From contig CAWUKD010000001.1 in NCBI GenBank assembly GCA_963922815.1, forward strand, positions 36,631 to 100,630: 64,000 nucleotides of DNA. Reading direction: 5' to 3'. The notes below the pieces were generated by a model. The model saw nothing but the letters and a program-made list of their open reading frames with translations. It was not told the origin of the DNA and made no database searches. The stretch is from an uncultured Gammaproteobacteria bacterium (lineage in GTDB: Bacteria; Pseudomonadota; Gammaproteobacteria; Steroidobacterales; SZUA-146). Every line of letters starts with the position of its first letter. The first letter of the stretch is position 1. A program made the translations under genes and the position numbers. This document shows positions 219 through 60,214 of the stretch, piece after piece.

Positions 219-2804
219 CTATCGGTGTAGCAGTACCGATACTGAGCCGGAAGAAGGGTTTGTCGCGACCAAATCAGGGCGTCCGTCGCCGTTCAGGTCA
301 CCGATTGCCACTGTGCCCTCGTCGCTCGCCGTAAAGTACGCCCCCGACCGAAACGTGCCGTCTCCGTTACCCAACAGCACAGTGAGAATCTTATTAAAAT
401 TGCCGACTGAAACGATGTCTGGAAATCCATCTGAATTCAGATCGCCGATGGATACCCAAAACGGCCCTGAATAGGTCTCGTAGGTCTGGGAAAACGACTG
501 AAACGTACCATCTCCGTGGCCCAAATTCACGATCACATTGCCGGCTCCAGCAGTGACCCGATCCAAGATGGCGTCTTCATTGAGATAGCCGACAGCAAGA
601 GCACCCGATGGGCTATTGACGTAGCCCACGTACGACCCTGATGGGGATCCGAGGGAGCCGCTGCCATTGCCTAGCAGCACTGAGAACGAAATCTCGTCCT
701 TGGTCGAGACGTTATTCGTTACCACGTCGGGAATCTCGTCACCGTTGAAATCACCCGTGGCCATTGAGCGCGGGAAGATGGTCGGGAAGTCGTAGTGTTG
801 ATTCGCGATCTCAAACGGAGCTCCAGCCTGGAGAGAACCGTCCCCAAATCCCAGAAGCACCGACACATCACGCGATTGGAGGTTTGAAGTAACGACGTCT
901 GCGATGGAATCAGAATTCATGTCTTCAATGGCTAAGGAAAGCGGAGCGTGGCCGTTCACGGTGGTCGCTAACGCTGCCTGGAATGTCCCATCGCCGTTGC
1001 CCAGGAGAACGCTGACATCATCGCTGCCGGCATTCGCCGTAACCAAATCGACGAATGAGTCCCCGTTCATGTGGGCGCTCGCAATTGAATAGGGTGCTTC
1101 TCCCATGTCCGTTGTCATCGCTACCTGAAAGGTTCCATCGCCATTACCCAGAAGCACGGAAACGTCATGGGAACTAGTATTTGCAGTGGCCAAGTCGGGA
1201 ACAGCGTCACCGTTCAGGTCCGTGATAACTACCGAGCGCGGACTGGCGCCTACAGCATATTCGGGTGCAGGCGTGGGCAGACTACCGTGGCCCTCGCCCA
1301 ACAGCACCGCTCCGGTCGACGTAACCGCGTCGACTACACCGTCACCATTCAAATCGCTGATGGCTATGTCTGGGTCAGGGAAGTTAGTACCGGTGCCACG
1401 CCCGGCATGAGGTGCCTGGGCGACGAAACTACCGTCGCCGTTGCCAAACAAGATGGCACCGCCCCCGGCAACAAGATCCGGAGCTAAGTCGCCATTTAAA
1501 TCGAAAATCTTGATGTGTCCAATAGAGTCTTCGCCATTGTCAATCACAATGGGCGCCTGAAAGCTGCTATCACCATTGTTCAGCGACACCAATATCTGGT
1601 ACTGACTAGGGCTCTGCCCAAAAATTCCAACCGTCGTTACGAGGTCTACCGCCTCATCGGCATTCAGGTCGCCGACAGCGAAGGTACGCAAACTAAGGAT
1701 GTCGCTGCCTAGCATGATCGACAACGACGGTTGAAAACTACCGTCACCGTTGCCAAGCAGTATCGACACGTCGTCAGAACCCCCATTGAGCGTCATAAGG
1801 TCAAGCGTTCTATCACCATTCATATCCCCGATAGTTATTGCGAAAGGGCCGTCCCCAGCGCCAATACTCTGGGCTGGCGCAAAACTACCGCCGCCGAATC
1901 CAAAAAGTACAGATACATCGTCGGAAGAACGATTTGCGGTGGCCAAATCCGGGATGCCATCCGCATTCAAATCACCAATGGCGATAGAGCTGGGCCTATC
2001 CCCCGCGTCGAGTTGTTCAGCCGCAAGAAAACCACCATTGCCGGTTGCGAGTAGAACGGTGATCGTATCATTAGCGCGACTAGCGGCCACGACGTCCGGA
2101 AGGTTGTCCGCGTTAACATCGCCGATTGCCACCGAATGGGCTTCGGCCCCAATGTCAAAGGTCTGTGTTTTTACAGAAAACCCGTCGCCGGTGCCTAGCC
2201 ATATCGACACGTTGCCCGAGTTTCCTTCGGCAAGCGCAATATCTGGAATGGTGTCGCCGTTCAAGTCTGCTGTATCGAGTGCATATGCTCTAGAGCCAAA
2301 TGGTATTCGCCCTCCTGGGTACATGAATTGCGGAGACTCCTGCGGCGTGGCGCAAAGGTTGTCAGCCCTACCGCTCGGACCCGGGGCCAGGAGGAAGCGC
2401 GATGTCATGATGCTAAAATCGATAAAGTTCACTGCGCCGTCGCCGTTGAAATCTGCGTCAGGGTCAGCAGTTGAGAACACAGACCCGAACAACCCAATGT
2501 CGACGAAGTTGACGATGCAATCATTATTTAAATCAGGATCGCACATGTTTCCGATGCCGTCTGCATCGGTGTCGCGTTGAAACAGGTTGAAGAGGTTTAC
2601 ACAATTGTCGCTAAGGTTAAGAGTGCCGTCGTCATCTATGTCGCCCGGAGTACGTGTCGCGAACGGAGCCGCCCACGATACGGCGGCGAACATTGTCGCC
2701 ATTAAAAGGGCACTGGTGATTAGTGTGGGGATTAACTGACGGGGCCGGTCAATCAAAGTTGTCGACCTAAGTCGGCATGCCAAGTGTGAGTGTGAGTTAT
2801 CCAT
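219..2804 (-). CDS. Secreted FG-GAP/VCBS-repeat protein, paralog A (predicted double 7-bladed beta-propeller) with N-terminal TSP3/dockerin-like Ca-binding module
   Basis: Track ORF 219..2822 starts at TTG; the ATG at 2804 is preferred and gives 861 aa, matching the paralogs. Signal-like stretch LIPTLITSALLMATMFAAVSWAAP. Module at aa ~61-157 of the track ORF: DIDDDG..DNC..QRDTDADGIGNMCDPDLNNDC..DFNGDGAVNFIDF..PGPSG. I counted 14 D-x-N-x-D loops of the type GDLNGDGxPDLV..S.DVSVLLGNGDGTFQ. Confidence 0.85.
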   Translation of the reverse strand: MDNSHSHLACRLRSTTLIDRPRQLIPTLITSALLMATMFAAVSWAAPFATRTPGDIDDDGTLNLSDNCVNLFNLFQRDTDADGIGNMCDPDLNNDCIVNFVDIGLFGSVFSTADPDADFNGDGAVNFIDFSIMTSRFLLAPGPSGRADNLCATPQESPQFMYPGGRIPFGSRAYALDTADLNGDTIPDIALAEGNSGNVSIWLGTGDGFSVKTQTFDIGAEAHSVAIGDVNADNLPDVVAASRANDTITVLLATGNGGFLAAEQLDAGDRPSSIAIGDLNADGIPDLATANRSSDDVSVLFGFGGGSFAPAQSIGAGDGPFAITIGDMNGDRTLDLMTLNGGSDDVSILLGNGDGSFQPSLSIMLGSDILSLRTFAVGDLNADEAVDLVTTVGIFGQSPSQYQILVSLNNGDSSFQAPIVIDNGEDSIGHIKIFDLNGDLAPDLVAGGGAILFGNGDGSFVAQAPHAGRGTGTNFPDPDIAISDLNGDGVVDAVTSTGAVLLGEGHGSLPTPAPEYAVGASPRSVVITDLNGDAVPDLATANTSSHDVSVLLGNGDGTFQVAMTTDMGEAPYSIASAHMNGDSFVDLVTANAGSDDVSVLLGNGDGTFQAALATTVNGHAPLSLAIEDMNSDSIADVVTSNLQSRDVSVLLGFGDGSLQAGAPFEIANQHYDFPTIFPRSMATGDFNGDEIPDVVTNNVSTKDEISFSVLLGNGSGSLGSPSGSYVGYVNSPSGALAVGYLNEDAILDRVTAGAGNVIVNLGHGDGTFQSFSQTYETYSGPFWVSIGDLNSDGFPDIVSVGNFNKILTVLLGNGDGTFRSGAYFTASDEGTVAIGDLNGDGRPDLVATNPSSGSVSVLLHR

Positions 2805-2843
2805 TTCAAATTCCGATTCCAAAATGCCCAGGGTGACTCCGGC

Positions 2844-5432
2844 TTAGCGTTGCAACAGGAGCACGAGCTCCCGTACTCCATTGTGGGTGGTGACCACATC
2901 CGGTTGATTGTCTCCATTGAGGTCTCCAACGGCGAGCTGCCCAGGCCTATCGGCGCCCATAAAGTGTGCTTTGCGAAACAGTCCATCACCAGAGCCCAAC
3001 AGCACAACGACATTGTCGTCGACCGGATTGTTGTCGATCCTATTTGTTGCCACCAAGTCCTGAACCAGGTCGCCGTTCAGGTCGGCAACCGCGATGGAAC
3101 CCAGATCAATGTCAGTGTAGGGGGTGTTTATCGTCGACGGGAAGCCGCCATCACCGTCACCAATGAACAATCTCAGGGACCCCGTCGTGTAGACGATGGC
3201 CACGTCCAAAACTTGATCGCCATCAAGATCTTCAATGGTGTAGGACTTTACCGCGAAATCTGTACTGTAAACTACAGGATCCTGGAAGCTGCCGTTGCCA
3301 ACACCCATTAATACCGAGATGACGCCAGCTCCACCCGGTCCGGAGCCATTGACCGCGATCAGATCTGGGATTGCGTCGCCATTCAGGTCCTGGATTTCCA
3401 CTCCTAGTGGTTCAATCCCGGAACCAATATCCAGTTGAGACGCAACCTGAAACTGGCCATCGCCATCACCCAAGAGTATGGAGATGTCATTGGTCAGTGT
3501 GTTCGCTGTAACAATATCGGGAAGAGCATCGTCGTTGATATCACCAATAGCTACTGACTCTGGCGACTCACCAACCAAAAATATCCTCTCAGGCTGATAA
3601 AGGCCTTCGCCAACGCCAAGAAAAACCGATACATCATTGGTGTCGATATTGGCGGCAACCAGATCTGCTATGTTGTCGGCGTTCACGTCCGCGATAGCAA
3701 CTGAGCCCGGGTCGCCTGTGCGCAGTGTAGGCAGGATGCGCTGGAACTCGCCAGCTCCGTCTCCGCGGAACACGGTTATCTTTTTGGCTGCCCTGCTGGT
3801 GGTGACCATATCAAGATTCTGATCCCCGTCGATGTCACCAAGTGTAATGGAGTCCGGTCGATTGATGTCGCTTATGGATTTCCAAGTCTGGACACCGCCG
3901 CTGAGAGTACCCGGCCACACGGCTATGGTATCGCGCAGCCGCAGCGCGCCGACGACATCGGGAATTGAATCGCCGTTCATGTAGCCCAGGGCAATGGCAA
4001 TTGACGAGTTTCTAGCACCCGTGTTAAAAACCTGGGGCGGCTCAAAACCGCCGTCGCCAATGCCCTTAGCTACCGAAACCCGCCCAAAGCTCCCCGAATC
4101 GAACGAAGTGCTTGCCATGACTAAATCCGGGATCGTGTCAGCGTTCATATCACCTATTGCCAGCCCGAATAAAAAACCGCCGCCTGGGTCCACCACAGGT
4201 GCCGGTAAAAAACTACCGTCTCCATTTCCAAGGAGAATTGAAACGTCGTTAGAGCTGCGATTTTGGGTGACGAGATCCGGCACTGAATCGCCGTTCAGAT
4301 CGGCAATTTCGACAGCCTCTGGATAGTTTCCAACACTGAAGGTTAAGGTTATCAGGAAGCCCCCTTCACCATTTCCCAATAACACCGAAACCGTATTATT
4401 CGAGTTTGCTGTGACAACGTCCAACATCGAGTCATCGTTGAGATCGGCTACGGCCACCGCGTTGGGCGAAGGCCCGACGCTGGCTAACCACGCCACCTGA
4501 AAAGTGCCGTCTCCATTTCCGATCAGAACGGATATCTCGTCCGTGTTGCGAGCGGTGGTGAACAGATCTGGAATGTTATCGCCGTTCAAATCTCCAATTG
4601 CCACAGACACTGGCTCGGGGTCAACACTGATTGCCACGGGCGCCTGAAAACCGCCGAAGCCGTTACCAAACACTATCGCCACCTCGTCGGCTTGTGCGTT
4701 AGCCGTTATGATGTCCAATATAGTATCGCCATTCAGATCGCCGATCGCCATGGCATTTGGCCGGTTCCCTACCGTATAGTTGACCGCGGTGCCTAAGCCG
4801 CCGTCGCTGTCACTCAGGAGCACGCTCAAGTTAGACGAGAACGAGTAGGTGTTAACTACATCCGGCCGACCATCGTTGTTAAAGTCACCGATCGCGACTC
4901 TATTTGGGTTGTTGCCAACTGAATACACGGTACCGGGGAACATCTCGTGCAGCGCGACGGGAACAGCCGGGCACGCGTTGTTGGCCAAACCACTCGGACC
5001 AGGAGCACCAAAAAAGCTCGTTGTCATGATACTTAGATCTAAAAAGTTGACATTGCCGTCACCGTTGAGATCCGCATCCGGGTCGAAGCCGAAAAACACC
5101 GACGTCATCATGGCCAGATCCAAAAAGTTGATCGCACAGTCGTTATTGAGGTCGGCATCACAAACATTGCCGATGCCATCGAAGTCCGAATCACGCTGTT
5201 GGAGGTTTGCGATGTTCAAGCAATTGTCGAGGGAATCGTCGATCCCGTCACCATCTAAATCTCCTGCAACCACCATTACGACCATCGCATCGTTAGTTGG
5301 GAGGGCTGATGCTGTGTGCGATAAGCCGATCAGCGAAATCAGAATCGTCATCGCGTACGCCGCAATGACAACAATAGATCGGTAACGCACGTCTGTGCCA
5401 GAAAGATAAAGCCAATGTGCGTTTGACGACAT
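2844..5432 (-). CDS. Secreted FG-GAP/VCBS-repeat protein, paralog B, same architecture
   Basis: Track ORF 2844..5531. The internal ATG at 5432 (MSSNAHW..) sits just before the hydrophobic segment IVVIAAYAMTILISLIGLSHTASA, removes the overlap with the upstream gene and gives 862 aa. Module: DLDGDG..DNC..QRDSDFDGIGNVCDADLNNDC..DLNGDGNVNFLDL..PGPSG. 14 FG-GAP loops counted. Confidence 0.85.
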   Translation of the reverse strand: MSSNAHWLYLSGTDVRYRSIVVIAAYAMTILISLIGLSHTASALPTNDAMVVMVVAGDLDGDGIDDSLDNCLNIANLQQRDSDFDGIGNVCDADLNNDCAINFLDLAMMTSVFFGFDPDADLNGDGNVNFLDLSIMTTSFFGAPGPSGLANNACPAVPVALHEMFPGTVYSVGNNPNRVAIGDFNNDGRPDVVNTYSFSSNLSVLLSDSDGGLGTAVNYTVGNRPNAMAIGDLNGDTILDIITANAQADEVAIVFGNGFGGFQAPVAISVDPEPVSVAIGDLNGDNIPDLFTTARNTDEISVLIGNGDGTFQVAWLASVGPSPNAVAVADLNDDSMLDVVTANSNNTVSVLLGNGEGGFLITLTFSVGNYPEAVEIADLNGDSVPDLVTQNRSSNDVSILLGNGDGSFLPAPVVDPGGGFLFGLAIGDMNADTIPDLVMASTSFDSGSFGRVSVAKGIGDGGFEPPQVFNTGARNSSIAIALGYMNGDSIPDVVGALRLRDTIAVWPGTLSGGVQTWKSISDINRPDSITLGDIDGDQNLDMVTTSRAAKKITVFRGDGAGEFQRILPTLRTGDPGSVAIADVNADNIADLVAANIDTNDVSVFLGVGEGLYQPERIFLVGESPESVAIGDINDDALPDIVTANTLTNDISILLGDGDGQFQVASQLDIGSGIEPLGVEIQDLNGDAIPDLIAVNGSGPGGAGVISVLMGVGNGSFQDPVVYSTDFAVKSYTIEDLDGDQVLDVAIVYTTGSLRLFIGDGDGGFPSTINTPYTDIDLGSIAVADLNGDLVQDLVATNRIDNNPVDDNVVVLLGSGDGLFRKAHFMGADRPGQLAVGDLNGDNQPDVVTTHNGVRELVLLLQR

Positions 5433-5502
5433 CCTGCCCTGTCTTAGAGATAAACAGGTCATCTTCAAGTACTCCATTCCATTCCTCCCGGCCCCGTCTC
5501 GT

Positions 5503-8085
5503 TCAGGGTTGCAGCACAACAGTGACGGCATCGTCCAGTGAATTAATGAACACCAGATCTGGACGCGAATCGCCGTTCAAATCGCCGATTGCCGGGCGAA
5601 CAGCGGACGTATCGGCAGCAAATCGAAGCGCTGCCAGAAAGTTGCCTTCACCGTCGCCAAGATAGACACTGAAAGTGCCCTCGCCGGTTAGAACAATATC
5701 TGGAATATCGTCGTCGTTTACATCCTGAATGACCGCCCCCGACGTTATATAAGGCGCGTCGTAGGTCTGAACTGTGTAGGTAAGTCCATTCCCTGTGCCC
5801 AGCGCCACAGCGTAGTGACCGTCCTCTTCCATGAAAAAATTAGTCGGGCTGGTGGCGAGCAGGTCTGGAATATTATCAGCATTAAAATCGCCAATGGCGA
5901 CAGCAAAAGGAGGATAGTTGGTGTTGGTCGGCCAACCAGCCTGAAAGCTGCCATCCCCGTTTCCCAGTAGTACCAACAAGTGGGCAATGCTGACGTTCCC
6001 CACAACCAGGTCAGCGATTTGATCCCCATTAAGGTCGCCAGTGGCCAAATCGCCCGTTCTTCCAAATCCGGCATAGTATGTTGCTGGCGAGCCGAAGCTT
6101 CCGTCGCCATTGCCGAGCATAATTGACACATAACTGTCTGAGCCCGAACTCGCCAGATCAGGAACCCCGTCGCCATCAAAATCGGATACCACTACATAGC
6201 CGCCTCCGGCCGGATAGGATTGAGCAGTTTGCATGCCACCTTCGCCATCGCCCAGAAACACCGATACGTCATTAGAGAACGCATTTGCCGTGACCACGTC
6301 CGGGATCTCGTCGCCGTTAAGATCACTAATTTTGACAGAACGTGGATCGCCACCAGTGTCGAACCACTCCTCAGGCTGGAAGCTGCTGTCGCCGTTGCCC
6401 AGCAAGACAGAGATGTCATTCGAATCCCGATTTGCCGTAACAAGATCTGGAACATCGTCACCATCAAGATCACCCATGGTGACAGATGCCGGCCGAATAC
6501 CAGTTCGGAACGATTGCGGAACAACAAAACCGCCATCGGCCCCTCTGGTTAGAATGATCAAGCTTGTGGCTGCAGCAACCACGTCAGTAATGCCGTCGCC
6601 ATTCAGGTCAGCGATGTCCACATGCCACGCTCTGTTACCGAGGTGGGCGGGATGCGCGTCCTGGAACTGGCCGTCGCCAAGTCCCAGCATAGACCAAACA
6701 TCATTGTCGCCGCCGACGATCAGATCAGGAACACCGTCGTTGTTTAATTCTCCTATCTTGATGGTACGTGAAATATCGCCCACCTCGATCGTAGGGGCCG
6801 GTTGGAAGCTCATGCCGCCGTCGCCCAGCAAGATCGTAATCGTCTCGATTCCAGGACCGGTATCAGGCTCGATGCTGGAGACCACGATGTCGAGGATTGA
6901 ATCATCGTTAAGATCACCCAGCGCCAACTGACGTAACGAACTCAAACTGGCTAATGTAATTAACATCGGCGCCTGAAAACTGCCATCGCCGTTGCCCACT
7001 AACACCGAAAAATGGTTTGAGTTAGTCTGGCTCGAGACACTTCTCAGCGTGACTAAATCCGGGATTTCGTCGCCATCAATGTCCCCAATTGTTACTGTAC
7101 CCACTCGGTCACCAGCAGGAAACGAAATCGCCGGATCAAAGTCGCTCTTACCATTTCCAAGCAATACCGACACGTTGTCGTCATTGATGTTGGCCGTTAC
7201 AATATCGGGTACGTCGTCGCCGTTGAGGTCTCCAACAGCCAGAGAAACCGGGGAGTTACCCACGGGCCTGTCAAAGGTCGTCTGGAAGTCGCCGTCGCCA
7301 GTACCAAGTAATATCGAGACATCACGTGACCCTTGATTCATCGCCACGAGATCCACAATTTCGTCACCATTCAGGTCACCGGCGAAAAGCTCCATTGTAT
7401 AGTTCCCGGCACCGAAGTATCGCGCGGGTCCAAACGAACCCGCCCCGTCGTTAAAGAATATGGCCACTGTGTCTGAGTCCAATGTCGGCGTTGCCATGTC
7501 GAGCGTACCGTCGCCGTCCAGGTCTTCGATGACTACCCACCTTGTCTGACCAACGACATCGTGCCGGTAGTTGGGGTAGAGCGCCTGGCCGTCGAGCGGT
7601 GGTATAGCGCACGCGCTGCCGGGGACGCCGCTTGGTCCGGGCACGCTATAGAAATCCCTCTTCATAATGCTAAAATCCAGGAAGTTGACCGTGCCGTCGC
7701 CGTTGAAATCTTCTTCCGGATCCGATGATGATAAAAACTCGGACGACAGTCGATCAAAATCCTCGAAGTTGATTATGCAGTCGTTGTTCAGGTCTGCATC
7801 GCAGGCGTTACCAATGCCATCTCCGTCTGTGTCCCTCTGAGCCGAATTTGCGATAAGCAGGCAGTTGTCGCTGGCATCGGCCACGCCGTCGCTATCTGTG
7901 TCGACAAGACGAGCCGATAAATTGATGTTGTGAGGCTTAGTCGCGAATTCGATGCCTTCTACAGGAGTGCTCAATAGCAAGCTCACCATTAGCGGACAGG
8001 CTAAAAACAGTAAGCTGGCTCTACGTATTTTCGACTTAACAGTAGTAAAAACGCACGTGCGACAAACATGGTCGATCGATTGCAT
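5503..8085 (-). CDS. Secreted FG-GAP/VCBS-repeat protein, paralog C, same architecture (first gene of the trio)
   Basis: Track ORF 5503..8160. The ATG at 8085 (MQSIDH..) gives 860 aa; starts at 8145 or 8160 are also possible. Signal-like KSKIRRASLLFLACPLMVSLLLSTPVEG. Module: DTDSDG..DNC..QRDTDGDGIGNACDADLNNDC..DFNGDGTVNFLDF..PGPSG. 14 FG-GAP loops counted. Confidence 0.85.
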   Translation of the reverse strand: MQSIDHVCRTCVFTTVKSKIRRASLLFLACPLMVSLLLSTPVEGIEFATKPHNINLSARLVDTDSDGVADASDNCLLIANSAQRDTDGDGIGNACDADLNNDCIINFEDFDRLSSEFLSSSDPEEDFNGDGTVNFLDFSIMKRDFYSVPGPSGVPGSACAIPPLDGQALYPNYRHDVVGQTRWVVIEDLDGDGTLDMATPTLDSDTVAIFFNDGAGSFGPARYFGAGNYTMELFAGDLNGDEIVDLVAMNQGSRDVSILLGTGDGDFQTTFDRPVGNSPVSLAVGDLNGDDVPDIVTANINDDNVSVLLGNGKSDFDPAISFPAGDRVGTVTIGDIDGDEIPDLVTLRSVSSQTNSNHFSVLVGNGDGSFQAPMLITLASLSSLRQLALGDLNDDSILDIVVSSIEPDTGPGIETITILLGDGGMSFQPAPTIEVGDISRTIKIGELNNDGVPDLIVGGDNDVWSMLGLGDGQFQDAHPAHLGNRAWHVDIADLNGDGITDVVAAATSLIILTRGADGGFVVPQSFRTGIRPASVTMGDLDGDDVPDLVTANRDSNDISVLLGNGDSSFQPEEWFDTGGDPRSVKISDLNGDEIPDVVTANAFSNDVSVFLGDGEGGMQTAQSYPAGGGYVVVSDFDGDGVPDLASSGSDSYVSIMLGNGDGSFGSPATYYAGFGRTGDLATGDLNGDQIADLVVGNVSIAHLLVLLGNGDGSFQAGWPTNTNYPPFAVAIGDFNADNIPDLLATSPTNFFMEEDGHYAVALGTGNGLTYTVQTYDAPYITSGAVIQDVNDDDIPDIVLTGEGTFSVYLGDGEGNFLAALRFAADTSAVRPAIGDLNGDSRPDLVFINSLDDAVTVVLQP

Positions 8086-8473
8086 TCTTAACTCATACGT
8101 TCTTTCGGCTTTAGTACTGCAGTGTTTCTGTAGGTGGCCTCCCATCCTGTTTGACCTCATTAGTTATCTAGCTAACTACATCTTTAGCACTATTTAGAGT
8201 GATTAATCGATAATTGAAAAGGTGGTGTCTGCTCCAAAATCAATCGTTTCAATGAGTAATCAGACGATAGTACAAGCCGAGGAAAATTCTACCATAGCGC
8301 GCCCTTCCTGGCGAACACGCCAAAATATTCCACCGGTGAGGGATACGATTGCTGCTCTAGAAACGTCATAGCCGGGAGTATTTGAAAGTTCTTACTTCGA
8401 TTCTTATTAACATAAGGTCGCGATAGGAATGCCGGTTACCAGGCACCCCTCGCAAAGATCCCAGCGTGCGCTA

Positions 8474-44466: not shown

Positions 44467-44467
44467 C

Positions 44468-47934: not shown

Positions 47935-50391
47935 TCAGAGCAAGCCGCTGGGACCCGGCGGTAACAAAAAGAATTCGCCGAGCAGTTCAAAGTCGAGAAA
48001 ATCCACCTTGCCGTCGCCGTTGAAGTCGGCGTCCTCATCATCAGACTGAAAGCGCTGTGCAAACAAAGCTATATCGACAAAGTTGGTGACCTGATCATCA
48101 TTAAGGTCCGTATCGCAAGCGTTCCCGAATCCATCCGCATTGCTGTCTCGCTGATCGCTATTGGCCCGATCCAGACAGTTGTCCGCCGTATTGGCAACAC
48201 CATCAAGATCGCTATCGGCCTGCGCCGCTACTCCGAGGGTTAGTCGCGTTGGGCTCAGACCCACGGCATCCGGCACCAGCAACACACTGCCGTAATAAGG
48301 CCCATCCTGTGCGCTTGCCATATCGAACACAACGTCGATAGCTTGTTCCTCGCCGGCGTCGAGCGTAAAACTTTGCGGAATAGCCGAAACGATTGGGCCC
48401 GCCTGATCGGTCTCCACCACTACCGTCCAGCTAGCAGGCGCCACGGCCTTGACCGTGCGAGACCAGGAGCATTCGTTTACGCAGTTCAGATCAACCAGTC
48501 CGGCCAAATTCATGCGCGACGGCTGACCGCCCTGAGCGGGGTTCGCCGCTTCAAACCCGGCGATCGTTTCGTTCAGTAATAACCCGGCCTGAACCGCAGC
48601 CGCCACGTCGATGCGACCGCCGCCGTAATCAAAGGGAGTGGTCGGATCATCTTCAAATTGCTCGTCCAATGGACCCACACCGGTGGTCATCAACGCTGAC
48701 AGCACTTCAGCGTCGGACCAATCAGGCCTGGCCGATTTAATCAGGGCTATCGCACCGCCACCGGGCCCCGCTGCCGGACCGGTCGCCACCTTGAACGACG
48801 CTTCCCCGGTTGGAACAATGACATCAATCGACGGTACGGCAACCGAAGGGGCCAGATAGTCAAGCCCCAGCACCGGGCCCCGGCTGCTCGCGCCGGAAAC
48901 ACGATCGGCCAGCTCCGGATCAATGGGCGCGTCGTTAAGCGTGATAGAGGCTGCATGCCCGCTTCCGCTGGCAAGCCAGGTCCGCAGTAAAGTAGAGTCT
49001 GCGGCATTCAGATGAATACCGGGAAACGGGAAGAAATCCGCGTGTACAGAATCAAAGCCGCCGACCACATTAGCGAGCACCATGCCACCGGCACCGGAAT
49101 CCAGTGCGTTCTGGGCTTTTTGTATGCGTGCAATCTGACCGCGATCACAGACCAGAATTTCACCGTTAAGCGTGCCAGGAGGAAACGGCTCAAGGCACTG
49201 CGCAGGGTCAGCAACCGGCACATCGAGACTACCGGCGTACACAATGTTCGCGGTAATTGGTCCGCCGAGAGAACCGCCCAACAAATCACCGGGAGGTGGC
49301 GTATCACCGCCGCTAAAGTTTGTCAGCACCTTGAAATTATTGGTTCGGCCATGGGTGCTCGAGATAAACGTTGCCGTCCACGGAGCGGCCAGACTGAGGC
49401 CCAGCGTTCCGGGTTCAGGTCCGCCGTTGCCAGTTATGTATGCCAGGCTGACGCCGTTGGCCCTGAGTGAAAGACCCGCCAGCCCGTAGAGGCCGTCCCA
49501 GGCCGTACTGATTGACGAGCCGATAAAATGCACGAGCACGTCAACGTCATCGTTGATGGCCTGCTCGAATGCGCTTAGCACACTGGTTGCTGCGCAGCTG
49601 GATTCACACGTTCGATACACGATCAGATTGGCATGAGGTGCAACCCCGGTAACGATCGGAAGCCCAATATTGCCAAGACTGGTCTCGCTCAACCGGTTGC
49701 CCGCAGCCTGACTGGCCGCCGAGTTGCTGGCACCGTCAAGCTCTTCCGAGGTCAGCTGTGAATCATTGCTGAACGTGTAGCGCCCGATCAGCTTGCTGTT
49801 GCACAGGACTTCCGGTGCGGTAAGGCACTCTCCCAGATACACGCCGTCGCCCAGCGGATTGGTGTGCGTGTAACCGTCATCGCCGGTAGCCGCAAAGGCA
49901 GGATGACTGCCGCTGATTCCGGTGCCGGTAATACCGATAACAACACCTTCTCCAAGGTGTCCACTATCATTCGTTGCCGAGCCGTCCCAGACTTCGTTAG
50001 CACGAATCAAATCCACGACAGGATCACCGCTACCGCCCGCACCATTGCGTTCCACCGTGGCCGTCAGTTCGGTCAATTCACGGGGCGATAGAGACGGAGT
50101 CAGCAGTTCGAACACTTCGTCTTTGATAACGGCTTGCACGCCTGGATGGCGACTAAGCCTGGACGCCTCGACGTCGTCCATCAGCGTCGAAAAACCATTG
50201 ATGACGTGTCGGTACTCCCGCACGACTTTTAGTTCGCGTCCAAGATCGGCGTTAAGCTGTGATCGCACCGACGCCGCATTTGCCGACGATTCAAGATGGA
50301 CGATGTAGCTGGCTTCCTCCGCCTGAACGGCACACGTCCCGGCAAGAGCCAACACGCAGGCTACGATGGTGTTTCTTAATGACTGAATCAT
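47935..50391 (-). CDS. Subtilase (peptidase S8, pyrolysin/plant-type with I9 propeptide and PA insert) homolog with Asp/His/Ser all substituted, plus a C-terminal TSP3/dockerin-like module; predicted pseudo-protease
   Basis: Signal peptide ..AGTCAVQA. I9-like YIVHL..VVREYRHVINGFS. Asp box reads VVIGITGTGI (expected ..DTG/DSG..). His box reads DGASNSAASQAAGN (expected DGHGTHTAS.AAGN). Ser box reads VATGPAAGPGGGAIALIK (expected SGTSMA.PHV.G). The oxyanion Asn is kept (ITGNGGP). PA-like ILVCDRGQIARIQK. The last 93 aa match the module of the FG-GAP trio. Confidence 0.85.
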   Translation of the reverse strand: MIQSLRNTIVACVLALAGTCAVQAEEASYIVHLESSANAASVRSQLNADLGRELKVVREYRHVINGFSTLMDDVEASRLSRHPGVQAVIKDEVFELLTPSLSPRELTELTATVERNGAGGSGDPVVDLIRANEVWDGSATNDSGHLGEGVVIGITGTGISGSHPAFAATGDDGYTHTNPLGDGVYLGECLTAPEVLCNSKLIGRYTFSNDSQLTSEELDGASNSAASQAAGNRLSETSLGNIGLPIVTGVAPHANLIVYRTCESSCAATSVLSAFEQAINDDVDVLVHFIGSSISTAWDGLYGLAGLSLRANGVSLAYITGNGGPEPGTLGLSLAAPWTATFISSTHGRTNNFKVLTNFSGGDTPPPGDLLGGSLGGPITANIVYAGSLDVPVADPAQCLEPFPPGTLNGEILVCDRGQIARIQKAQNALDSGAGGMVLANVVGGFDSVHADFFPFPGIHLNAADSTLLRTWLASGSGHAASITLNDAPIDPELADRVSGASSRGPVLGLDYLAPSVAVPSIDVIVPTGEASFKVATGPAAGPGGGAIALIKSARPDWSDAEVLSALMTTGVGPLDEQFEDDPTTPFDYGGGRIDVAAAVQAGLLLNETIAGFEAANPAQGGQPSRMNLAGLVDLNCVNECSWSRTVKAVAPASWTVVVETDQAGPIVSAIPQSFTLDAGEEQAIDVVFDMASAQDGPYYGSVLLVPDAVGLSPTRLTLGVAAQADSDLDGVANTADNCLDRANSDQRDSNADGFGNACDTDLNDDQVTNFVDIALFAQRFQSDDEDADFNGDGKVDFLDFELLGEFFLLPPGPSGLL

Positions 50392-51603: not shown

Positions 51604-53373
51604 TTAATTCGGGTCGACTTTCGACATCTTGCGCGCACGCTTGCGAATCACAGGCTTTTTGAATGCACGTTTGGGTTTCACTGCAGGCGGACTGCTGGTC
51701 GCTTCCGTTTTATCGTCTGCAGCCTTTACAGATGCTTTGCTGCTTGACGCTTTCGTCGCACCTTTTTTCTTGCTCGCCGATTTGCCCGAGGCCTTTTTCT
51801 TTGTGGCAGCACGTTTCCCCGACGCTTTTTTGGCTGACGATTTTTTTGCCGTCGCTTTCTTGCTGGTCGCTTTGCGGCCGATCACTTTCTTTTTCGCCGC
51901 CGGTTTCGTTGTTTTCGCGCTCACCTTACTGACCGCTTTGCCGTCTTCATCGGCTTCGACAATATTCCGGGTGGCGTCATAAAGCTCGTCGAATGATTCC
52001 TGCAGACACTGCGCGTAAAACGCCGGGTCCGGCATCATTTCGCGGCAGCAACATACGGCAATATTAAACGTGCCACAGTAGCTGCCAATGGCGTGGAACA
52101 GTCCTGTCCCGTCAATGGGCGGCCCCATACCAAAGCTGCTGATCATGCGGGCGCCGGTAAAATATAGCGGTACCTGCGGACCGGGTACGTTAGTGATCAC
52201 ACAGTTATAAAGCGGCTTGATCCGATTGACCAGCCCCATGCGACTCGCCAGTCGTGCCGCCGACGCGGTCAGGGTTGACGGTATGAACTGCGCGTAGTCC
52301 GTCATGCTCTTGGCACCTATGGCATTGGTCAGTTCTTTGGCGTGACGCGTACCCTTACTTACCGACAGCAGGCGCTCGATCGGGTCTTCGATATGACTGC
52401 CTATACGGACCGTCATTTGAGACACCTGATTACCCGCCGTACCGAGCTTGTCTTTGGTGCGCACGTTAATGGGCGCCATTGCTGCCAGCGACTTTCGGGG
52501 CAATTCGCTCTTGCTCTCAAGATATTTGCGTAGCCCGCCTCCACAAATGGCAAGCGCCACATCGTTAACCGTTACACCTTCAATCGAGCTTTTAATGGCC
52601 TTGATGTCTTTGAGCTTGAAGAGCACCGAGTCGAACACACGGTGAGGGGAAACATTGGTATTGAACCGGGTGCGCGGCAAGTCGGTAACGCGATTGATAT
52701 TGCCTGCGGCCATGCCGGTAACAAACCTGGTCAGCCCGGGCAGCGTATTGCGCGCGACTGAAAACACCCGCAGCGGTGTTTTAATGGTGTTGATCTGAGC
52801 GCGCCAGAGCAGTTCGAGGTTGGAAGGCATGCGTTCGGTTTCAATCGGACGAACTTCAGGATATTTTTCAGGTGACGGTTCAAGATCATGAATAATGGAC
52901 GCAATCTCCACCCCGGATGCGCCGTCTATGGCCGCGTGGTGCATCTTGCTTAATACGGCGAAACAGCCTGGCGGGTATCCCTCGACATTATCGAGCCCTT
53001 CGATAATGTACATTTCCCACAGCGGATGGGCCCGATCGAGCGGTCGTGCGTGCAGACGGGATACCTGAATACAGAGCTGGCGCCAGTCGCCGGGTTTGGG
53101 TAGCGCGATGTGCCGGATATGAAACTCCGGGTCAAAGTCGCCATCGGCTCGCCAGTAGGGGTGATCAAGACTCAGGGGGACTTCAACCAGCGTATTGGTC
53201 AGTGCGGCAATGCGCTGTGCACGAGCGGTCAGGTTGGCCAGAATTTGCTTGAACGTGACGTGACCGCCTTCCGCCGTAGACGGATCGTAGATGGACAGCC
53301 CTCCAATGTGCATGGGTGTATTGGCTGTTTCCAGATACAAAAACGATGCGTCGAGTCCACTGAGCTGCTGCAC
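51604..53373 (-). CDS. Wax ester synthase / diacylglycerol acyltransferase (WS/DGAT) with a ~104-aa C-terminal Lys/Ala/Ser-rich histone-H1-like tail
   Basis: MQQLSGLDASFLYLE..PMHIGGL and the active-site HHAAIDGASG. The C-terminus reads AKTTKPAAKKKVIGRKATSKKATAKKSSAKKASGKRAATKKKASGKSASKKKG..KPKRAFKKPVIRKRARK. Confidence 0.88.
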   Translation of the reverse strand: MQQLSGLDASFLYLETANTPMHIGGLSIYDPSTAEGGHVTFKQILANLTARAQRIAALTNTLVEVPLSLDHPYWRADGDFDPEFHIRHIALPKPGDWRQLCIQVSRLHARPLDRAHPLWEMYIIEGLDNVEGYPPGCFAVLSKMHHAAIDGASGVEIASIIHDLEPSPEKYPEVRPIETERMPSNLELLWRAQINTIKTPLRVFSVARNTLPGLTRFVTGMAAGNINRVTDLPRTRFNTNVSPHRVFDSVLFKLKDIKAIKSSIEGVTVNDVALAICGGGLRKYLESKSELPRKSLAAMAPINVRTKDKLGTAGNQVSQMTVRIGSHIEDPIERLLSVSKGTRHAKELTNAIGAKSMTDYAQFIPSTLTASAARLASRMGLVNRIKPLYNCVITNVPGPQVPLYFTGARMISSFGMGPPIDGTGLFHAIGSYCGTFNIAVCCCREMMPDPAFYAQCLQESFDELYDATRNIVEADEDGKAVSKVSAKTTKPAAKKKVIGRKATSKKATAKKSSAKKASGKRAATKKKASGKSASKKKGATKASSSKASVKAADDKTEATSSPPAVKPKRAFKKPVIRKRARKMSKVDPN

Positions 53374-56593: not shown

Positions 56594-56597
56594 AGAC

Positions 56598-59581: not shown

Positions 59582-60214
59582 CTACTTCCTTCTCGAAAAC
59601 CCCAGCAGGCCAGCTATGCCAGATAGTAACAGCCAGACAGCTGCAGGCACAGGCACGGGTGCCGCCACGACCAGATAGCTTCCATAAGGCTGAATATTGG
59701 ACAGTGAATCAGAGATCACGGTGAGGCCTTCAACTTCGTACGTAGTAAAACCAAAATCAGTCTGATAAGCACCCATAGCATCGTGACCCGCACCATTGAC
59801 GTTGGCCGTCAGGCCCGAAACACCTGCCGGATAATCAAATGCCGCGTAAATCGTCCAGGTATTACCTAAAAAACTGCCGGCCAGTGCCACATTGGGGTCA
59901 GCACCGGGGCTCGAAGTCGCAGCACCAGCGGACAGGTCTATACCGAAGTTTGCCCACAGTGCCTGGACTTCGGCGTTAGTTGCGTAGCGAAAGCCTTCAA
60001 ATTCTCCGCCGGCGCCAAACTCGCCGCTTACGTAGTCGTACGTCAGCCCATACGTTTCCGTCAGATCCAGCCACTGAAGTCCGCTCACATCATCATACGT
60101 CAGCAGATTATCTCCGGCGCTCTGCCAGTCCGTACTGACGACCGATGCCCCCACACCCACCGAACAAAAAGCGAAGCAAACAGCCGCTGCTTTTACTAGT
60201 GTATTAATACTCAT
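59582..60214 (-). CDS. PEP-CTERM sorting-domain protein (exosortase substrate)
   Basis: Signal peptide MSINTLVKAAAVCFAFCSVGVGA. The C-terminus VPVPAAVWLLLSGIAGLLGFSRRK gives the VPxP motif + TM + basic tail. N-terminal body: GLQWLDLTET..Y..V..GFRYATNAEVQAL. Confidence 0.88.
   Translation of the reverse strand: MSINTLVKAAAVCFAFCSVGVGASVVSTDWQSAGDNLLTYDDVSGLQWLDLTETYGLTYDYVSGEFGAGGEFEGFRYATNAEVQALWANFGIDLSAGAATSSPGADPNVALAGSFLGNTWTIYAAFDYPAGVSGLTANVNGAGHDAMGAYQTDFGFTTYEVEGLTVISDSLSNIQPYGSYLVVAAPVPVPAAVWLLLSGIAGLLGFSRRK

What the first reader, a model, noticed from the sequence alone, without database searches (positions are those of the whole stretch)
47935..48216. A shared ~95-aa TSP3 + dockerin-like module ending in PGPSG links the FG-GAP trio to a subtilase homolog 40 kb away, with correlated loss of a Cys pair
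Seen: the same module occurs four times. It is N-terminal, just after the signal peptide, in the three FG-GAP proteins (about 2352-2642, 4971-5261 and 7609-7902). It is at the extreme C-terminus of the subtilase homolog (47935-48216). Consensus by eye: D.D.DG....DNC.....N..QRD(S/T).(A/G)DG(I/F)GN.CD.DLN.D..(I/V)NF.D........F.....D..(D/E)(F/L)NGDG.V(N/D)F(L/I)D(F/L)........F...PGPSG. The FG-GAP copies have four Cys: DNC, GN.C, NNDC and one 5-6 residues after PGPSG. The subtilase copy keeps the first two. It has Gln in place of the third, and it ends three residues after PGPSG, so the fourth is also absent. Known: D-x-D-x-DG..D repeats are thrombospondin type-3 Ca-binding repeats. Paired DxNxDGxVNxxD loops are the dockerin/EF-hand signature. 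Inference: this is a portable Ca-dependent targeting or assembly module, possibly dockerin-like binding to an unidentified cohesin-like partner or surface polymer. It would place four otherwise unrelated extracellular proteins in one functional set. The joint loss of Cys3 and Cys4 suggests they form a disulfide in the FG-GAP versions. I do not recognise this exact module-plus-PGPSG arrangement as a named domain.
Basis: partly seen in the sequence, partly recalled or inferred. Interest (0 to 1): 0.75.

Follow-up and report, generated by a model that had tools for sequence, protein, structure and literature searches.

The report
TSP3-capped dockerin tag on secreted proteins
Four secreted proteins in this window share a ~95-residue calcium-binding tag (a thrombospondin repeat fused to a dockerin), and in other uncultured bacteria genes carrying this tag sit next to a small cohesin-like surface-anchor gene, which points to a cellulosome-style docking system unrelated to cellulose.

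Summary
Four minus-strand ORFs carry one ~95-aa module, 51-63% identical, with HMM E-values of 1e-49 to 1e-55 and no fifth copy in the window. It consists of one thrombospondin type-3 repeat, a compact dockerin (two duplicated Ca-loop/helix segments) and a conserved PGPSG tail. An AlphaFold model (pLDDT 96.6) matches dockerin chains from cohesin-dockerin crystal structures best. The module is widespread: at least 1,508 protein clusters and at least 381 loci in species-representative genomes, mostly uncultured Gammaproteobacteria. It is usually at the extreme C-terminus, occurs many times per genome, and is attached to more than 50 unrelated passenger families. No dedicated Pfam or NCBIfam model exists.

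New here: a ~200-aa cohesin-like protein with a PEP-CTERM/VPLPA-CTERM anchor lies beside module carriers in 9 of 29 genomes. Of 31 metagenome loci seeded only on that protein, 16 carry a module gene nearby. The predicted Cys3-Cys4 pairing covaries strongly (60 both, 137 neither, 13 discordant).

No cohesin-like gene lies in this window, and no binding was tested. The window "subtilase" lacks all three catalytic residues.

The parts
47938..48216 (-). C-terminal TSP3-dockerin-PGPSG module of the subtilase homologue (aa 726-818). This is the no-Cys3/Cys4 variant, ending PGPSGLL.
   Evidence: HMM E 5e-49. AF2 pLDDT 96.6. Foldseek to dockerins and TSP3.
48112..48216 (-). Thrombospondin type-3 repeat (aa 726-760: DSDLDGVANTADNC...QRDSNADGFGNAC D) with the Cys739/Cys759 pair.
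   Evidence: phmmer versus COMP 3fby_A 5.7e-19 and thrombospondin-2 and -1. Pfam TSP_3 18.0 bits, below the 25-bit cut-off.
47968..48108 (-). Compact dockerin (aa 762-808). It has two duplicated segments, each a 12-residue Ca loop plus a helix: DLNDDQVTNFVD-IALFAQRF and DFNGDGKVDFLD-FELLGEFF.
   Evidence: Pfam Dockerin_1 18.8 bits, below the 22.9 cut-off. Foldseek 2y3n_B E 2.7e-4, rmsd 1.2 A. Model helices at positions 52-61 and 79-87.
47938..47961 (-). PPGPSGLL tail (aa 811-818), the conserved end of the module. In the Cys variant the tail continues to Cys4.
   Evidence: P, G, P and S are invariant or nearly so across 122 sequences. Tails of 232 homologues were examined; 210 could be parsed.
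2352..2642 (-). N-terminal module of FG-GAP protein 1 (aa 61-157), Cys3/Cys4 variant, after a signal-peptide-like stretch.
   Evidence: (E 1.1e-55).
4971..5261 (-). N-terminal module of FG-GAP protein 2 (aa 91-187), Cys3/Cys4 variant.
   Evidence: (E 6.3e-55).
7609..7902 (-). N-terminal module of FG-GAP protein 3 (aa 87-184), Cys3/Cys4 variant. This is the only window copy above the Pfam Dockerin_1 cut-off (29.0 bits).
   Evidence: (E 5.5e-54).
219..8160 (-). Tandem trio of FG-GAP/VCBS beta-propeller carrier genes (219-2822, 2844-5531, 5503-8160). They are paralogues at 35-39% identity.
   Evidence: Pfam FG-GAP_3 E 4e-64 to 1e-72. blastp between the three.
47935..50391 (-). Carrier gene: I9 propeptide + S8 subtilase fold + PA domain + module. 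The catalytic Asp, His and Ser are replaced (Gly, Ala, Gly), so it is a pseudo-protease.
   Evidence: Pfam. Alignment to 8jmw_A. Orthologue alignment.
59582..60214 (-). Context only: a VPLPA-CTERM/PEP-CTERM sorting-signal protein. It is not cohesin-like, but it shows that this genome uses exosortase-type anchoring.
   Evidence: TIGR03370 27.4 bits versus 25.35 cut-off. The cohesin-like HMMs match only its signal peptide and tail.

Best explanation
The module is a self-contained, Ca2+-binding docking tag. It has three parts: one thrombospondin type-3 repeat with an internal Cys1-Cys2 disulfide, a compact dockerin made of two duplicated F-hand loop-helix segments, and a PGPSG tail.

The tail probably folds back as an intramolecular clasp. 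In about 30% of family members, including the three FG-GAP copies, the clasp would be made covalent by a Cys3-Cys4 disulfide. Cys3 is position 6 of Ca loop 1. Cys4 lies about 6 residues after PGPSG.

The tag is appended, usually C-terminally and sometimes just after the signal peptide, to many unrelated Sec-exported proteins. After export it most likely binds, in a Ca2+-dependent way, to a small cohesin-like protein that is itself fixed to the cell surface or exopolysaccharide matrix through a PEP-CTERM/VPLPA-CTERM (exosortase) anchor. That would tether the tagged proteins near the cell.

In this window the tagged proteins are three FG-GAP beta-propellers and a catalytically dead subtilase. 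All four are therefore more likely binding or adhesion proteins than enzymes.

Shown: homology of the four copies, the fold, the distribution, the gene-neighbourhood link and the Cys covariation.

Inferred: Ca binding, the disulfides, the physical cohesin-dockerin contact, surface location, and the existence of a partner in this particular genome.
For: Homology and chance:
- Identity is 51-63% with 40 invariant columns, and the HMM finds only the four copies.

Composition:
- The first half matches TSP3 repeats in PDB (5.7e-19).
- One window copy passes the Dockerin_1 cut-off, and 21 of 66 carriers hit it at E < 1e-4.

Fold:
- AF2 gives pLDDT 96.6 and pTM 0.84.
- About 19 of the 25 Foldseek PDB hits are dockerin-containing chains, mostly from cohesin-dockerin complexes. 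The best is 2y3n_B (prob 1.00, rmsd 1.2 A, 37% identity). TSP3 structures make up most of the rest.
- The family consensus shows the internal duplication typical of dockerins: DLNNDGxVNFxDLGxxKxVFF and DLNGDGxVNFxDLGIxKxxFF.

Tag-like distribution:
- 1,508 clusters at E <= 1e-5 and at least 381 confirmed genome loci.
- At least 12 loci in one MAG and at least 9 in another.
- 83 of 112 hits lie at the extreme C-terminus and 16 are N-terminal.
- 52 Pfam families occur among 66 carriers: S8 peptidases, PKD, sortilin/BNR, penicillin amidase, di-haem peroxidase, FG-GAP, multicopper oxidase, M4, M64 and others.

Partner:
- Clustering the neighbours of carriers gave a ~190-210 aa family (signal peptide + ~140 aa domain + PEP-CTERM/VPLPA-CTERM tail). 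It lies immediately beside carriers in 9 loci from 9 of the 29 genomes sampled.
- Its profile hits mainly cohesins in PDB (3l8q_A 5e-6, 6kg8_A 1e-5; about 25 of 31 hits). Pfam Cohesin matches 8 of 35 members and PEP-CTERM 25 of 35. One member is named 'cohesin domain-containing protein' by NCBI.

Reverse direction:
- In five look-ups that started from cohesin-like proteins, the neighbouring gene carries the module in three (E 5e-35, 1e-25, 9e-18) and a canonical dockerin in one. An S8+TSP3 gene lies two genes away in the fifth.
- Of 31 metagenome loci seeded only on the cohesin-like domain, 16 carry a module gene on the same, mostly 1-5 kb, contig. It is usually less than 600 bp away on the same strand.

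Analogy:
- A homologous S8-PA protease of a cultured Shewanella (P0367) carries a GlyGly-CTERM anchor at the same C-terminal position.
- The window genome encodes a VPLPA-CTERM protein.

Disulfide and clasp:
- Cys3/Cys4 covariation is 60/1/12/137 (p = 4e-39).
- N-to-C-terminal clasps are a documented stabilising feature of dockerins (PMC3821032).
Against: - No cohesin-like ORF lies in the 64-kb window, and the rest of the source genome could not be examined.
- In the MAGs with the most carriers (SGMAG-12, SRP268394_co1_214), no cohesin-like gene was seen within +/-6 kb of the fetched carriers.
- Only 46 cohesin-like clusters were recovered against 1,508 carrier clusters.
- The cohesin assignment rests on sequence profiles with E of about 1e-5 to 1e-6.
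The copy that was modelled lacks both cysteines.
- Dockerin-like modules without any known cohesin are common, and their function outside cellulosomes is stated to be unknown (PMC5244752).
- No experiment supports binding.
Confidence: 0.6

Rival explanations
1. The module is an autonomous Ca2+-dependent folding or stability module. It would help large exported proteins fold or resist proteolysis in Ca-rich seawater or sediment, and it would have no protein partner.
For: - TSP3 repeats and F-hand loops are general Ca-binding structural elements.
- The window has no cohesin-like gene.
- Most carriers in the fetched loci have no cohesin-like neighbour.
- The module works at either end of a protein.
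Against: - It does not explain the two-way gene-neighbourhood link with a cohesin-like family.
- It does not explain why the duplicated helix faces (NFxDLG..K..FF) are conserved more strongly than the passengers: 58-65% versus 35-39% identity in the FG-GAP trio.
Confidence: 0.2
2. The module binds a non-protein surface ligand directly, such as exopolysaccharide, LPS or a mineral or host matrix. It would act as a Ca-bridged lectin-like anchor.
For:
- Acidic Ca-binding repeats can bridge to anionic polymers (general knowledge).
- PEP-CTERM systems are linked to exopolysaccharide production (general knowledge; NCBIfam names).
Against: - The best structural matches are protein-binding dockerins.
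- No carbohydrate-binding family hit the module.
- The genomic partner is a cohesin-like protein.
Confidence: 0.12
3. The module is a C-terminal secretion or sorting signal that a dedicated export or processing machine recognises and removes, by analogy with T9SS CTDs or PEP-CTERM.
For: - It is predominantly at the extreme C-terminus with a very conserved end (PGPSG + 2-3 residues such as IAP or LVP).
- There are many carriers per genome.
Against: - No transmembrane helix or basic cluster follows the motif.
- 16 of 112 hits, and the three FG-GAP copies, are N-terminal, just after an ordinary signal peptide, with PGPSG internal.
- The fold is a dockerin, not a beta-sandwich CTD.
- No conserved processing enzyme emerged from neighbour clustering.
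Confidence: 0.05
4. The resemblance is a chance similarity of Asp-rich, low-complexity Ca-binding motifs, and the four regions are not homologous.
For: DxDxDG motifs recur in FG-GAP, TSP3, dockerin and EF-hand proteins (PMC3123361 was listed but not read).
Against: - Gap-free alignment shows 51-63% identity, 40 invariant columns including hydrophobic and Cys/Pro/Gly positions, and E of 1e-49 to 1e-55.
- The FG-GAP repeats in the same proteins score E > 30 against the module HMM.
Confidence: 0.01

Closest known systems
Type I/II dockerins of clostridial and Ruminococcus cellulosomes (Pfam PF00404; e.g. PDB 2y3n_B, 4fl4, 2ozn)
   Same: - Two duplicated ~21-residue segments, each a 12-residue Ca loop (D1, N3, D5, D12) followed by a helix.
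- The same fold (rmsd 1.2 A to 2y3n_B).
- A terminal tag on many different exported proteins.
- A cohesin-like gene nearby.
- An N-to-C-terminal clasp is plausible.
   Different: - It is fused to an obligatory upstream TSP3 repeat.
- The inter-segment linker is very short (6-8 residues), and the model shows two helices rather than three.
- It has a conserved PGPSG tail and an optional Cys3-Cys4 bond.
- Hosts are Gram-negative, mostly uncultured Gammaproteobacteria.
- Passengers are peptidases, propellers and oxidoreductases, not cellulases.
- The putative partner is a single-cohesin protein with a PEP-CTERM anchor, not an SLH- or sortase-anchored scaffoldin.
Thrombospondin/COMP type-3 repeats and bacterial TSP3 repeats (PF02412; PDB 3fby, 1ux6, 2rhp; OmpA-like TSP3)
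   Same: The DxDxDGxxDxxDNC...NxxQxDxDxDGxGDxCD motif with its Cys pair. PDB phmmer E = 5.7e-19.
   Different: There is a single repeat serving as the N-terminal cap of a dockerin, not a long array wrapped around a Ca core. The window copies score below the Pfam gathering threshold.
Proposed non-cellulosomal cohesin-dockerin assemblies: the 'planctosome' of freshwater Planctomycetes (PMC6461901), ANME cohesin/dockerin proteins (PMC5244752), and Omnitrophota dockerin/TSP3 giant proteins (bioRxiv 10.1101/2023.11.21.568195)
   Same: Cohesin/dockerin modules on peptidases and other non-cellulolytic exoproteins. TSP3 repeats occur in the same proteins. The function is hypothetical and inferred from domain co-occurrence.
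   Different: - Those reports do not describe this fixed TSP3-dockerin-PGPSG unit, its Cys3/Cys4 variant, or a PEP-CTERM-anchored single-cohesin partner.
- The anchoring proposed there is different (lamin-tail domain, S-layer).
- No paper in the searchable library contains both 'PEP-CTERM' and 'dockerin'.
C-terminal sorting/anchor signals of Gram-negative exoproteins (PEP-CTERM/exosortase, GlyGly-CTERM/rhombosortase)
   Same: They occupy the same C-terminal position in homologous S8-PA proteases (a Shewanella homologue has GlyGly-CTERM). There are many carriers per genome. The presumed outcome is retention at the cell surface.
   Different: The module has no transmembrane helix or basic tail, also works N-terminally, and would act through non-covalent docking onto a separately anchored partner. 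It would not be processed by a sortase-like enzyme.

Membership tests
Dockerin (Pfam PF00404 Dockerin_1) | Two tandem duplicated segments, each with a 12-residue F-hand Ca loop (D/N at positions 1, 3, 5; D at 12) followed by a helix | tested here: met
   Subtilase copy: DLNDDQVTNFVD + IALFAQRF and DFNGDGKVDFLD + FELLGEFF. The same pattern is in the three FG-GAP copies and in the 122-sequence consensus. Model helices at 52-61 and 79-87.
Dockerin (Pfam PF00404 Dockerin_1) | Score above the Pfam gathering threshold (22.9 bits) | tested here: inconclusive
   FG3 scores 29.0 bits (passes). FG1 15.4, FG2 14.6 and the subtilase copy 18.8 are below. 21 of 66 foreign carriers hit at E < 1e-4.
Dockerin (Pfam PF00404 Dockerin_1) | Dockerin three-dimensional fold | tested here: met
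   AF2 pLDDT 96.6. Foldseek top hits are dockerin chains: 2y3n_B E 2.7e-4, TM 0.79 normalised to the target, rmsd 1.2 A; also 4u3s_B, 3kcp_A, 6kgf_D, 2ozn_B and others.
Dockerin (Pfam PF00404 Dockerin_1) | Ca2+-dependent binding to a cohesin | not testable with these tools
   No complex prediction or experiment was available. The only support is gene neighbourhood.
Dockerin (Pfam PF00404 Dockerin_1) | A cohesin encoded in the same genome | tested here: inconclusive
A cohesin-like gene lies next to carriers in 9 of 29 other genomes, and a module gene lies beside the cohesin-like gene in 16 of 31 loci seeded on that gene.
Thrombospondin type-3 repeat (Pfam PF02412) | DxDxDGxxDxxDNC...QxDxDxDGxGDxCD motif with the Cys pair | tested here: met
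   Motif present in all four copies. phmmer versus COMP 3fby_A 5.7e-19 and thrombospondin-2 4.6e-9.
Thrombospondin type-3 repeat (Pfam PF02412) | Score above the Pfam gathering threshold (25 bits) | tested here: not met
   18.0-21.5 bits in three copies and no hit in FG1. 40 of 66 foreign carriers hit at E < 1e-4.
PEP-CTERM / GlyGly-CTERM / MYXO-CTERM type sorting signals | Short motif + hydrophobic transmembrane helix + basic cluster at the extreme C-terminus | tested here: not met
   The subtilase ends ...FFLLPPGPSGLL with no helix or Arg/Lys cluster. The module is N-terminal in the FG-GAP trio. No such NCBIfam model hit the four carriers, apart from local TSP3 similarity to MtsC.
MtsC cell-cell cohesion protein (NCBIfam NF047638) | Full-length equivalog score (cut-off 350 bits) | tested here: not met
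   44.7-48.2 bits covering about 70 of 428 profile positions. This is local TSP3 similarity only.
GC-type dockerin domain (NCBIfam NF041540) | Domain score above the 29-bit cut-off | tested here: not met
   17.5 bits in FG1 only.
Cohesin (Pfam PF00963), for the neighbouring ~200-aa family in related loci (not in this window) | Sequence-profile similarity to solved cohesins or the Pfam model | tested here: inconclusive
   A profile of 35 members hits cohesins in PDB (3l8q_A 5.2e-6, 6kg8_A 1e-5, 6kgc_A 1.7e-5; about 25 of 31 hits). Pfam Cohesin matches 8 of 35 members, best 5e-9, but the closest neighbours of carriers score 19 bits, below the 24.1 cut-off. No structure was predicted.
Subtilase S8 (active peptidase), for the carrier at 47935-50391 | Catalytic Asp-His-Ser triad | tested here: not met
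   Aligned to 8jmw_A: Asp->Gly, His->Ala, Ser->Gly. The same loss is seen in orthologues P0318-P0324, while P0325, P0326, P0342 and others keep D/H/S.

The most novel reading that the evidence does not exclude
Many Gram-negative bacteria, mainly uncultured marine and sediment Gammaproteobacteria but also some Myxococcota and Desulfobacterota, would run a cellulosome-like display system that has nothing to do with cellulose. Single-cohesin proteins would be fixed to the cell envelope or exopolysaccharide matrix by exosortase (PEP-CTERM/VPLPA-CTERM). They would capture dozens of secreted proteins carrying a TSP3-capped, sometimes disulfide-clasped, dockerin tag. These include peptidases, pseudo-peptidases, beta-propellers, oxidoreductases and multihaem cytochromes. 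This would be a general non-covalent surface-retention route for T2SS/Sec-exported proteins in diderm bacteria.
Probability: 0.4. Interest if true: 0.8.

Novelty: new variant of a known kind. Interest (0 to 1): 0.62.

Why it matters
How Gram-negative bacteria in open water or sediment keep secreted enzymes close to the cell is poorly understood. The function of the many cohesin- and dockerin-like modules found outside cellulosome-producing Firmicutes is explicitly described as unknown (PMC5244752).

This finding defines a compact, highly conserved and very common tag. It predicts the tag's structure with high confidence. It also names a specific candidate receptor: a ~200-aa cohesin-like protein with a PEP-CTERM anchor encoded right next to tagged genes.

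That makes the question directly testable with two small recombinant domains. If the interaction is real, three things follow:
- It links the exosortase/PEP-CTERM system to cohesin-dockerin assembly.
- It gives an annotation rule for thousands of 'TSP3 repeat-containing' hypothetical proteins.
- It offers a new orthogonal Ca-dependent docking pair, with an optional covalent clasp, for protein engineering.

For this window, it suggests that three FG-GAP propellers and a dead subtilase are co-displayed binding proteins.

Tried and rejected
- AF2 on the four-sequence alignment gave an unusable model (pLDDT 46). It was replaced by the 122-sequence run.
- phmmer-style profile of only 8 cohesin-like neighbours against PDB gave no cohesin hit, only weak Ig-like hits (E about 0.1). 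The cohesin signal appeared only with the 35-member profile.
- The exhaustive representative search returned 80,141 / 28,607 / 6,283 hits at E <= 1e-3 / 1e-10 / 1e-30. The list is dominated by giant proteins with 10-46 TSP3 repeats, so it is not a count of the composite module and I do not use it as one.
- The look-up of encoding contigs failed for the window subtilase and for its identical database entry P0317. The listing of cluster members gave no name. The source organism stays unidentified; closest relatives are Gammaproteobacteria MAGs.
- Contexts of two stand-alone ~175-aa module proteins showed more carriers nearby but no cohesin-like gene.
- A literature search for 'PGPSG' returned only collagen peptides. 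Peer et al. 2009 (PMC3035643) is not held.
- The window's VPLPA-CTERM protein (59582-60214) was considered as the partner and rejected. The cohesin-like HMMs match only its signal peptide and sorting tail.
- The histidine kinase at 60458-61765 is not PrsK by NCBIfam: 66.9 bits against a 300-bit cut-off.
The closer subset A6 worked.

Full report
**1. The observation**

The window holds four minus-strand ORFs with the described module.
- Three tandem FG-GAP proteins: 219-2822, 2844-5531 and 5503-8160.
- A subtilase homologue: 47935-50391.

The module begins at the first Asp of D-x-D-x-DG. It ends at PGPSG, plus six residues to Cys4 in the FG-GAP copies.

The four copies align almost without gaps (a single one-residue indel). 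They are 51-63% identical, and 40 columns are invariant, including Cys, Pro, Gly, Phe and Val positions. An HMM of the four finds only these four in the six-frame translation of the window. E-values are 5e-49 to 1e-55, and the next hit has E = 1.5. The many FG-GAP Ca loops in the same proteins score E > 30. So this is homology, not Asp-rich low complexity.

Minor corrections:
- The subtilase ends two residues after PGPSG, not three.
- The three FG-GAP proteins are paralogues at 35-39% identity overall, but 58-65% in the module.
- The window modules are no closer to each other than to modules from other genomes.

**2. What the module is**

Pfam sees a TSP_3 repeat (18-21.5 bits, below the 25-bit cut-off) followed by Dockerin_1. 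Dockerin_1 scores 29.0 bits in FG3, above the 22.9 cut-off, and 14.6-18.8 in the other copies. NCBIfam gives only local TSP3 similarity to MtsC (45-48 of 350 bits) and a sub-threshold GC-type dockerin hit. Neither library has a dedicated model.

Against PDB sequences, residues 4-53 match COMP and thrombospondin type-3 repeats (5.7e-19). Residues 39-87 match dockerins weakly (2y3n_B, 0.019).

A four-sequence AlphaFold run failed (pLDDT 46). With a 122-sequence alignment the model reached pLDDT 96.6 and pTM 0.84. Foldseek against PDB returned mostly dockerin-containing chains from cohesin-dockerin complexes. The best was 2y3n_B (probability 1.00, rmsd 1.2 A over 51 columns, 37% identity). Thrombospondin and COMP structures were also among the hits.

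The family consensus shows the internal duplication that defines dockerins:
- DLNNDGxVNFxDLGxxKxVFF
- DLNGDGxVNFxDLGIxKxxFF

The module is therefore one TSP3 repeat, a compact dockerin and a PGPSG tail.

**3. Distribution**

A profile search of 5.8 billion clustered proteins found 1,508 clusters at E <= 1e-5. Where annotated, they are called 'thrombospondin type 3 repeat-containing' or 'dockerin type I domain-containing'.

Most are in uncultured Gammaproteobacteria (including Thiotrichales, Chromatiales, Acidiferrobacterales, Methylococcales and Oleiphilaceae). A few are in Myxococcota, Desulfosarcina, Deferrisomatales and Spirochaetaceae. Among the 80 best loci kept, one MAG contributes 12 and another 9.

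In those loci, 83 of 112 module hits lie at the extreme C-terminus, ending 0-5 residues after PGPSG or at Cys4. Sixteen lie just after a signal peptide, as in the FG-GAP trio. Thirteen are internal or partial. Carriers are often in tandem: five in L017, and three each in L018 and L078.

Sixty-six carriers contain 52 different Pfam families: S8 peptidases (7), PKD, sortilin/BNR, penicillin amidase, apiosidase-like, di-haem peroxidase, FG-GAP, GSDH, LTD, multicopper oxidase, M4, M64 and others. This is the distribution expected of a portable tag.

**4. A candidate partner**

I clustered all neighbours of carriers after masking the module. The most recurrent non-carrier family is a 190-210 aa protein with a signal peptide, a ~140-aa domain and a PEP-CTERM/VPLPA-CTERM tail. 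It lies directly beside carriers, mostly on the same strand. It occurs in 9 loci from 9 of the 29 genomes sampled: L016, L017, L018, L022, L031, L034, L051 and L056, and as a domain of a 1,652-aa PKD protein in L067.

Evidence that this family is cohesin-like:
- One close member scores 19 bits on Pfam Cohesin, below the 24.1 cut-off.
- The family connects at E = 3e-12 or weaker to relatives that Pfam calls Cohesin, and NCBI names one member 'cohesin domain-containing protein'.
- A 35-member profile hits mainly cohesins in PDB: 3l8q_A 5e-6, 6kg8_A 1e-5, and about 25 of 31 hits.
- Pfam finds PEP-CTERM in 25 of 35 members and Cohesin in 8 of 35.

The link also holds in the reverse direction. There were five look-ups starting from cohesin-like proteins:
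- In three, the neighbouring gene carries the module (E 5e-35, 1e-25, 9e-18). One of these carriers is a 1,300-aa multihaem-cytochrome-like protein.
- In one, the neighbour carries a canonical dockerin.
- In one, an S8+TSP3 gene lies two genes away.

A metagenome scan seeded only on motifs inside the cohesin-like domain returned 31 loci. Sixteen carry a module gene on the same contig. Most contigs are only 1-5 kb, and the module gene is usually less than 600 bp away on the same strand.

The window itself has no cohesin-like ORF. It does encode a VPLPA-CTERM protein at 59582-60214, next to a sigma-54 response regulator whose best NCBIfam match is the PEP-CTERM-box regulator. The genome therefore probably has an exosortase system.

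**5. The cysteines**

Cys1 and Cys2 are invariant or nearly invariant across the family. They correspond to the Cys pair of thrombospondin type-3 repeats.

Cys3 is position 6 of Ca loop 1. Cys4 lies about 6 residues after PGPSG. Across the 210 of 232 homologues that could be parsed:
- both present: 60
- both absent: 137
- Cys3 alone: 1
- a tail Cys without Cys3: 12, several of which have two tail Cys forming their own pair

The Fisher test gives p = 4e-39, uncorrected for phylogeny.

When both are absent, the protein usually ends 2-3 residues after PGPSG, as the window subtilase does. Dockerins are known to be stabilised by a non-covalent clasp between residues before the first Ca loop and the C-terminus (PMC3821032). 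The Cys3-Cys4 bond would be a covalent version of this clasp. I could not measure distances because model coordinates are not returned.

**6. Mechanism proposed, and rivals**

The most likely mechanism is as follows. After Sec export and outer-membrane transit, the module binds Ca2+ and folds. It then docks onto a cohesin-like protein held at the surface or in the matrix by its PEP-CTERM anchor, so the passenger stays near the cell.

An analogy supports a retention role. A homologous active S8-PA protease of a cultured Shewanella carries a GlyGly-CTERM anchor at the same position.

Rivals:
- A partner-less Ca-dependent stabiliser (0.2).
- Direct binding to a polysaccharide or other surface (0.12).
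- A cleaved sorting signal (0.05). This is contradicted by N-terminal copies and the lack of a transmembrane helix.
- Chance similarity (refuted).

**7. Comparison with what is known**

Cohesin- and dockerin-like modules outside cellulosomes are known, but their function is described as unknown (PMC5244752). Hypothetical assemblies have been proposed for Planctomycetes peptidases (PMC6461901). Dockerin plus TSP3 repeats have been noted in Omnitrophota giant proteins.

I found no description of this fixed TSP3-dockerin-PGPSG unit, of its Cys variant, or of a PEP-CTERM cohesin partner. No paper in the searchable library holds both 'PEP-CTERM' and 'dockerin'. The library lacks most subscription journals, so absence there is weak evidence.

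I classify this as a new variant of a known kind.

**8. Verdict**

- Observation: confirmed.
- Interpretation: supported. The physical interaction, and the presence of a partner in this particular genome, remain untested.
- Confidence: about 0.9 that this is a TSP3-capped dockerin-fold tag, about 0.55 that it docks to PEP-CTERM cohesin-like proteins, about 0.8 for the Cys3-Cys4 bond.
- Interest: 0.62.

Noticed in passing
window 47935-50391 (-): The 'subtilase' is a pseudo-enzyme. Aligned to the S8 peptidase 8jmw_A, the catalytic Asp, His and Ser are Gly, Ala and Gly. Orthologues at 41-62% identity (P0318-P0324) also lack the triad, and all end in the module. More distant homologues keep D/H/S. 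This is a conserved family of dead subtilases with I9 and PA domains, so a binding role is likely.
   Followed up: partly
window 59582-60214 (-), 60458-61765 (-), 61762-63105 (-): A 210-aa VPLPA-CTERM/PEP-CTERM protein lies next to a histidine kinase and a sigma-54 response regulator. Its ~160-aa domain has no family hit. The regulator's best NCBIfam match is the PEP-CTERM-box regulator PrsR (392 bits, below the 502.6 cut-off). This suggests an exosortase system in the genome, but no exosortase gene was seen in the window.
   Followed up: partly
L009 869-1519, L016 11524-12072, L051 3198-4502, L069 2629-3273: A third recurrent neighbour: a ~180-435 aa lipoprotein-like protein with no Pfam hit. 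It lies next to the cohesin-like gene or a carrier in four loci from different genomes. It could be another component of the system.
   Followed up: partly
P0057, P0065, P0096, P0100, P0111 (proteins); L084 8001-8525, L085 8001-8537: A subfamily of stand-alone ~175-aa proteins: signal peptide, a ~60-aa region with repeated S-x-S/N-Y-x-L motifs (SSNYxLxWDVVDxGGG...SASYRL), then the module ending PGPSGIAP. The role of so small a passenger is unclear. More carriers lie nearby in L085, but no cohesin-like gene was seen.
   Followed up: partly
P0178 (407 aa), also P0272 (499 aa): The representative search found short proteins matching the full module profile in 4 and 8 stretches. They appear to be made almost entirely of tandem modules and might act as multivalent adaptors.
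   Followed up: no
L080 8877-12779: A 1,300-aa multihaem-cytochrome-like protein (Cytochrome_C7 and MtrC/MtrF-like hits) carries the module N-terminally and lies directly downstream of a cohesin-like PEP-CTERM gene. This hints that extracellular electron-transfer proteins may be docked this way.
   Followed up: no
window 8474-9565 (-): An IS66-family transposase ORF (NCBIfam 320 bits, covering profile positions 77-367 of 387, so probably N-terminally truncated) lies about 300 bp upstream of the FG-GAP trio.
   Followed up: no
window 51604-53373 (-): A 589-aa protein with an N-terminal domain that looks like a wax-ester synthase/DGAT (HHAAIDG motif, by eye). It ends in a ~110-residue Lys/Ala/Ser-rich, histone-H1-like tail (AKKKVIGRKATSKKATAKKSSAKKASGKRAATKKK...). 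It was not searched against any library.
   Followed up: no
window 55079-56623 (-): A sensor histidine kinase with a Gly/Pro-rich insertion (GPGRRAGGPGGPEHRPGGPGRPPGGPGGEPGGGPGGSSGG) between the periplasmic part and the HAMP-like region. It is paired with an OmpR-type regulator at 56598-57314 (by eye).
   Followed up: no
window 20623-22335 (-), 42739-46300 (-): Assimilatory sulfate reduction genes are spread over the window: bifunctional sulfate adenylyltransferase/APS kinase (949 bits) and, by eye, sulfite reductase CysI/CysJ. This is ordinary housekeeping context showing that the tagged genes sit in the chromosome core.
   Followed up: no
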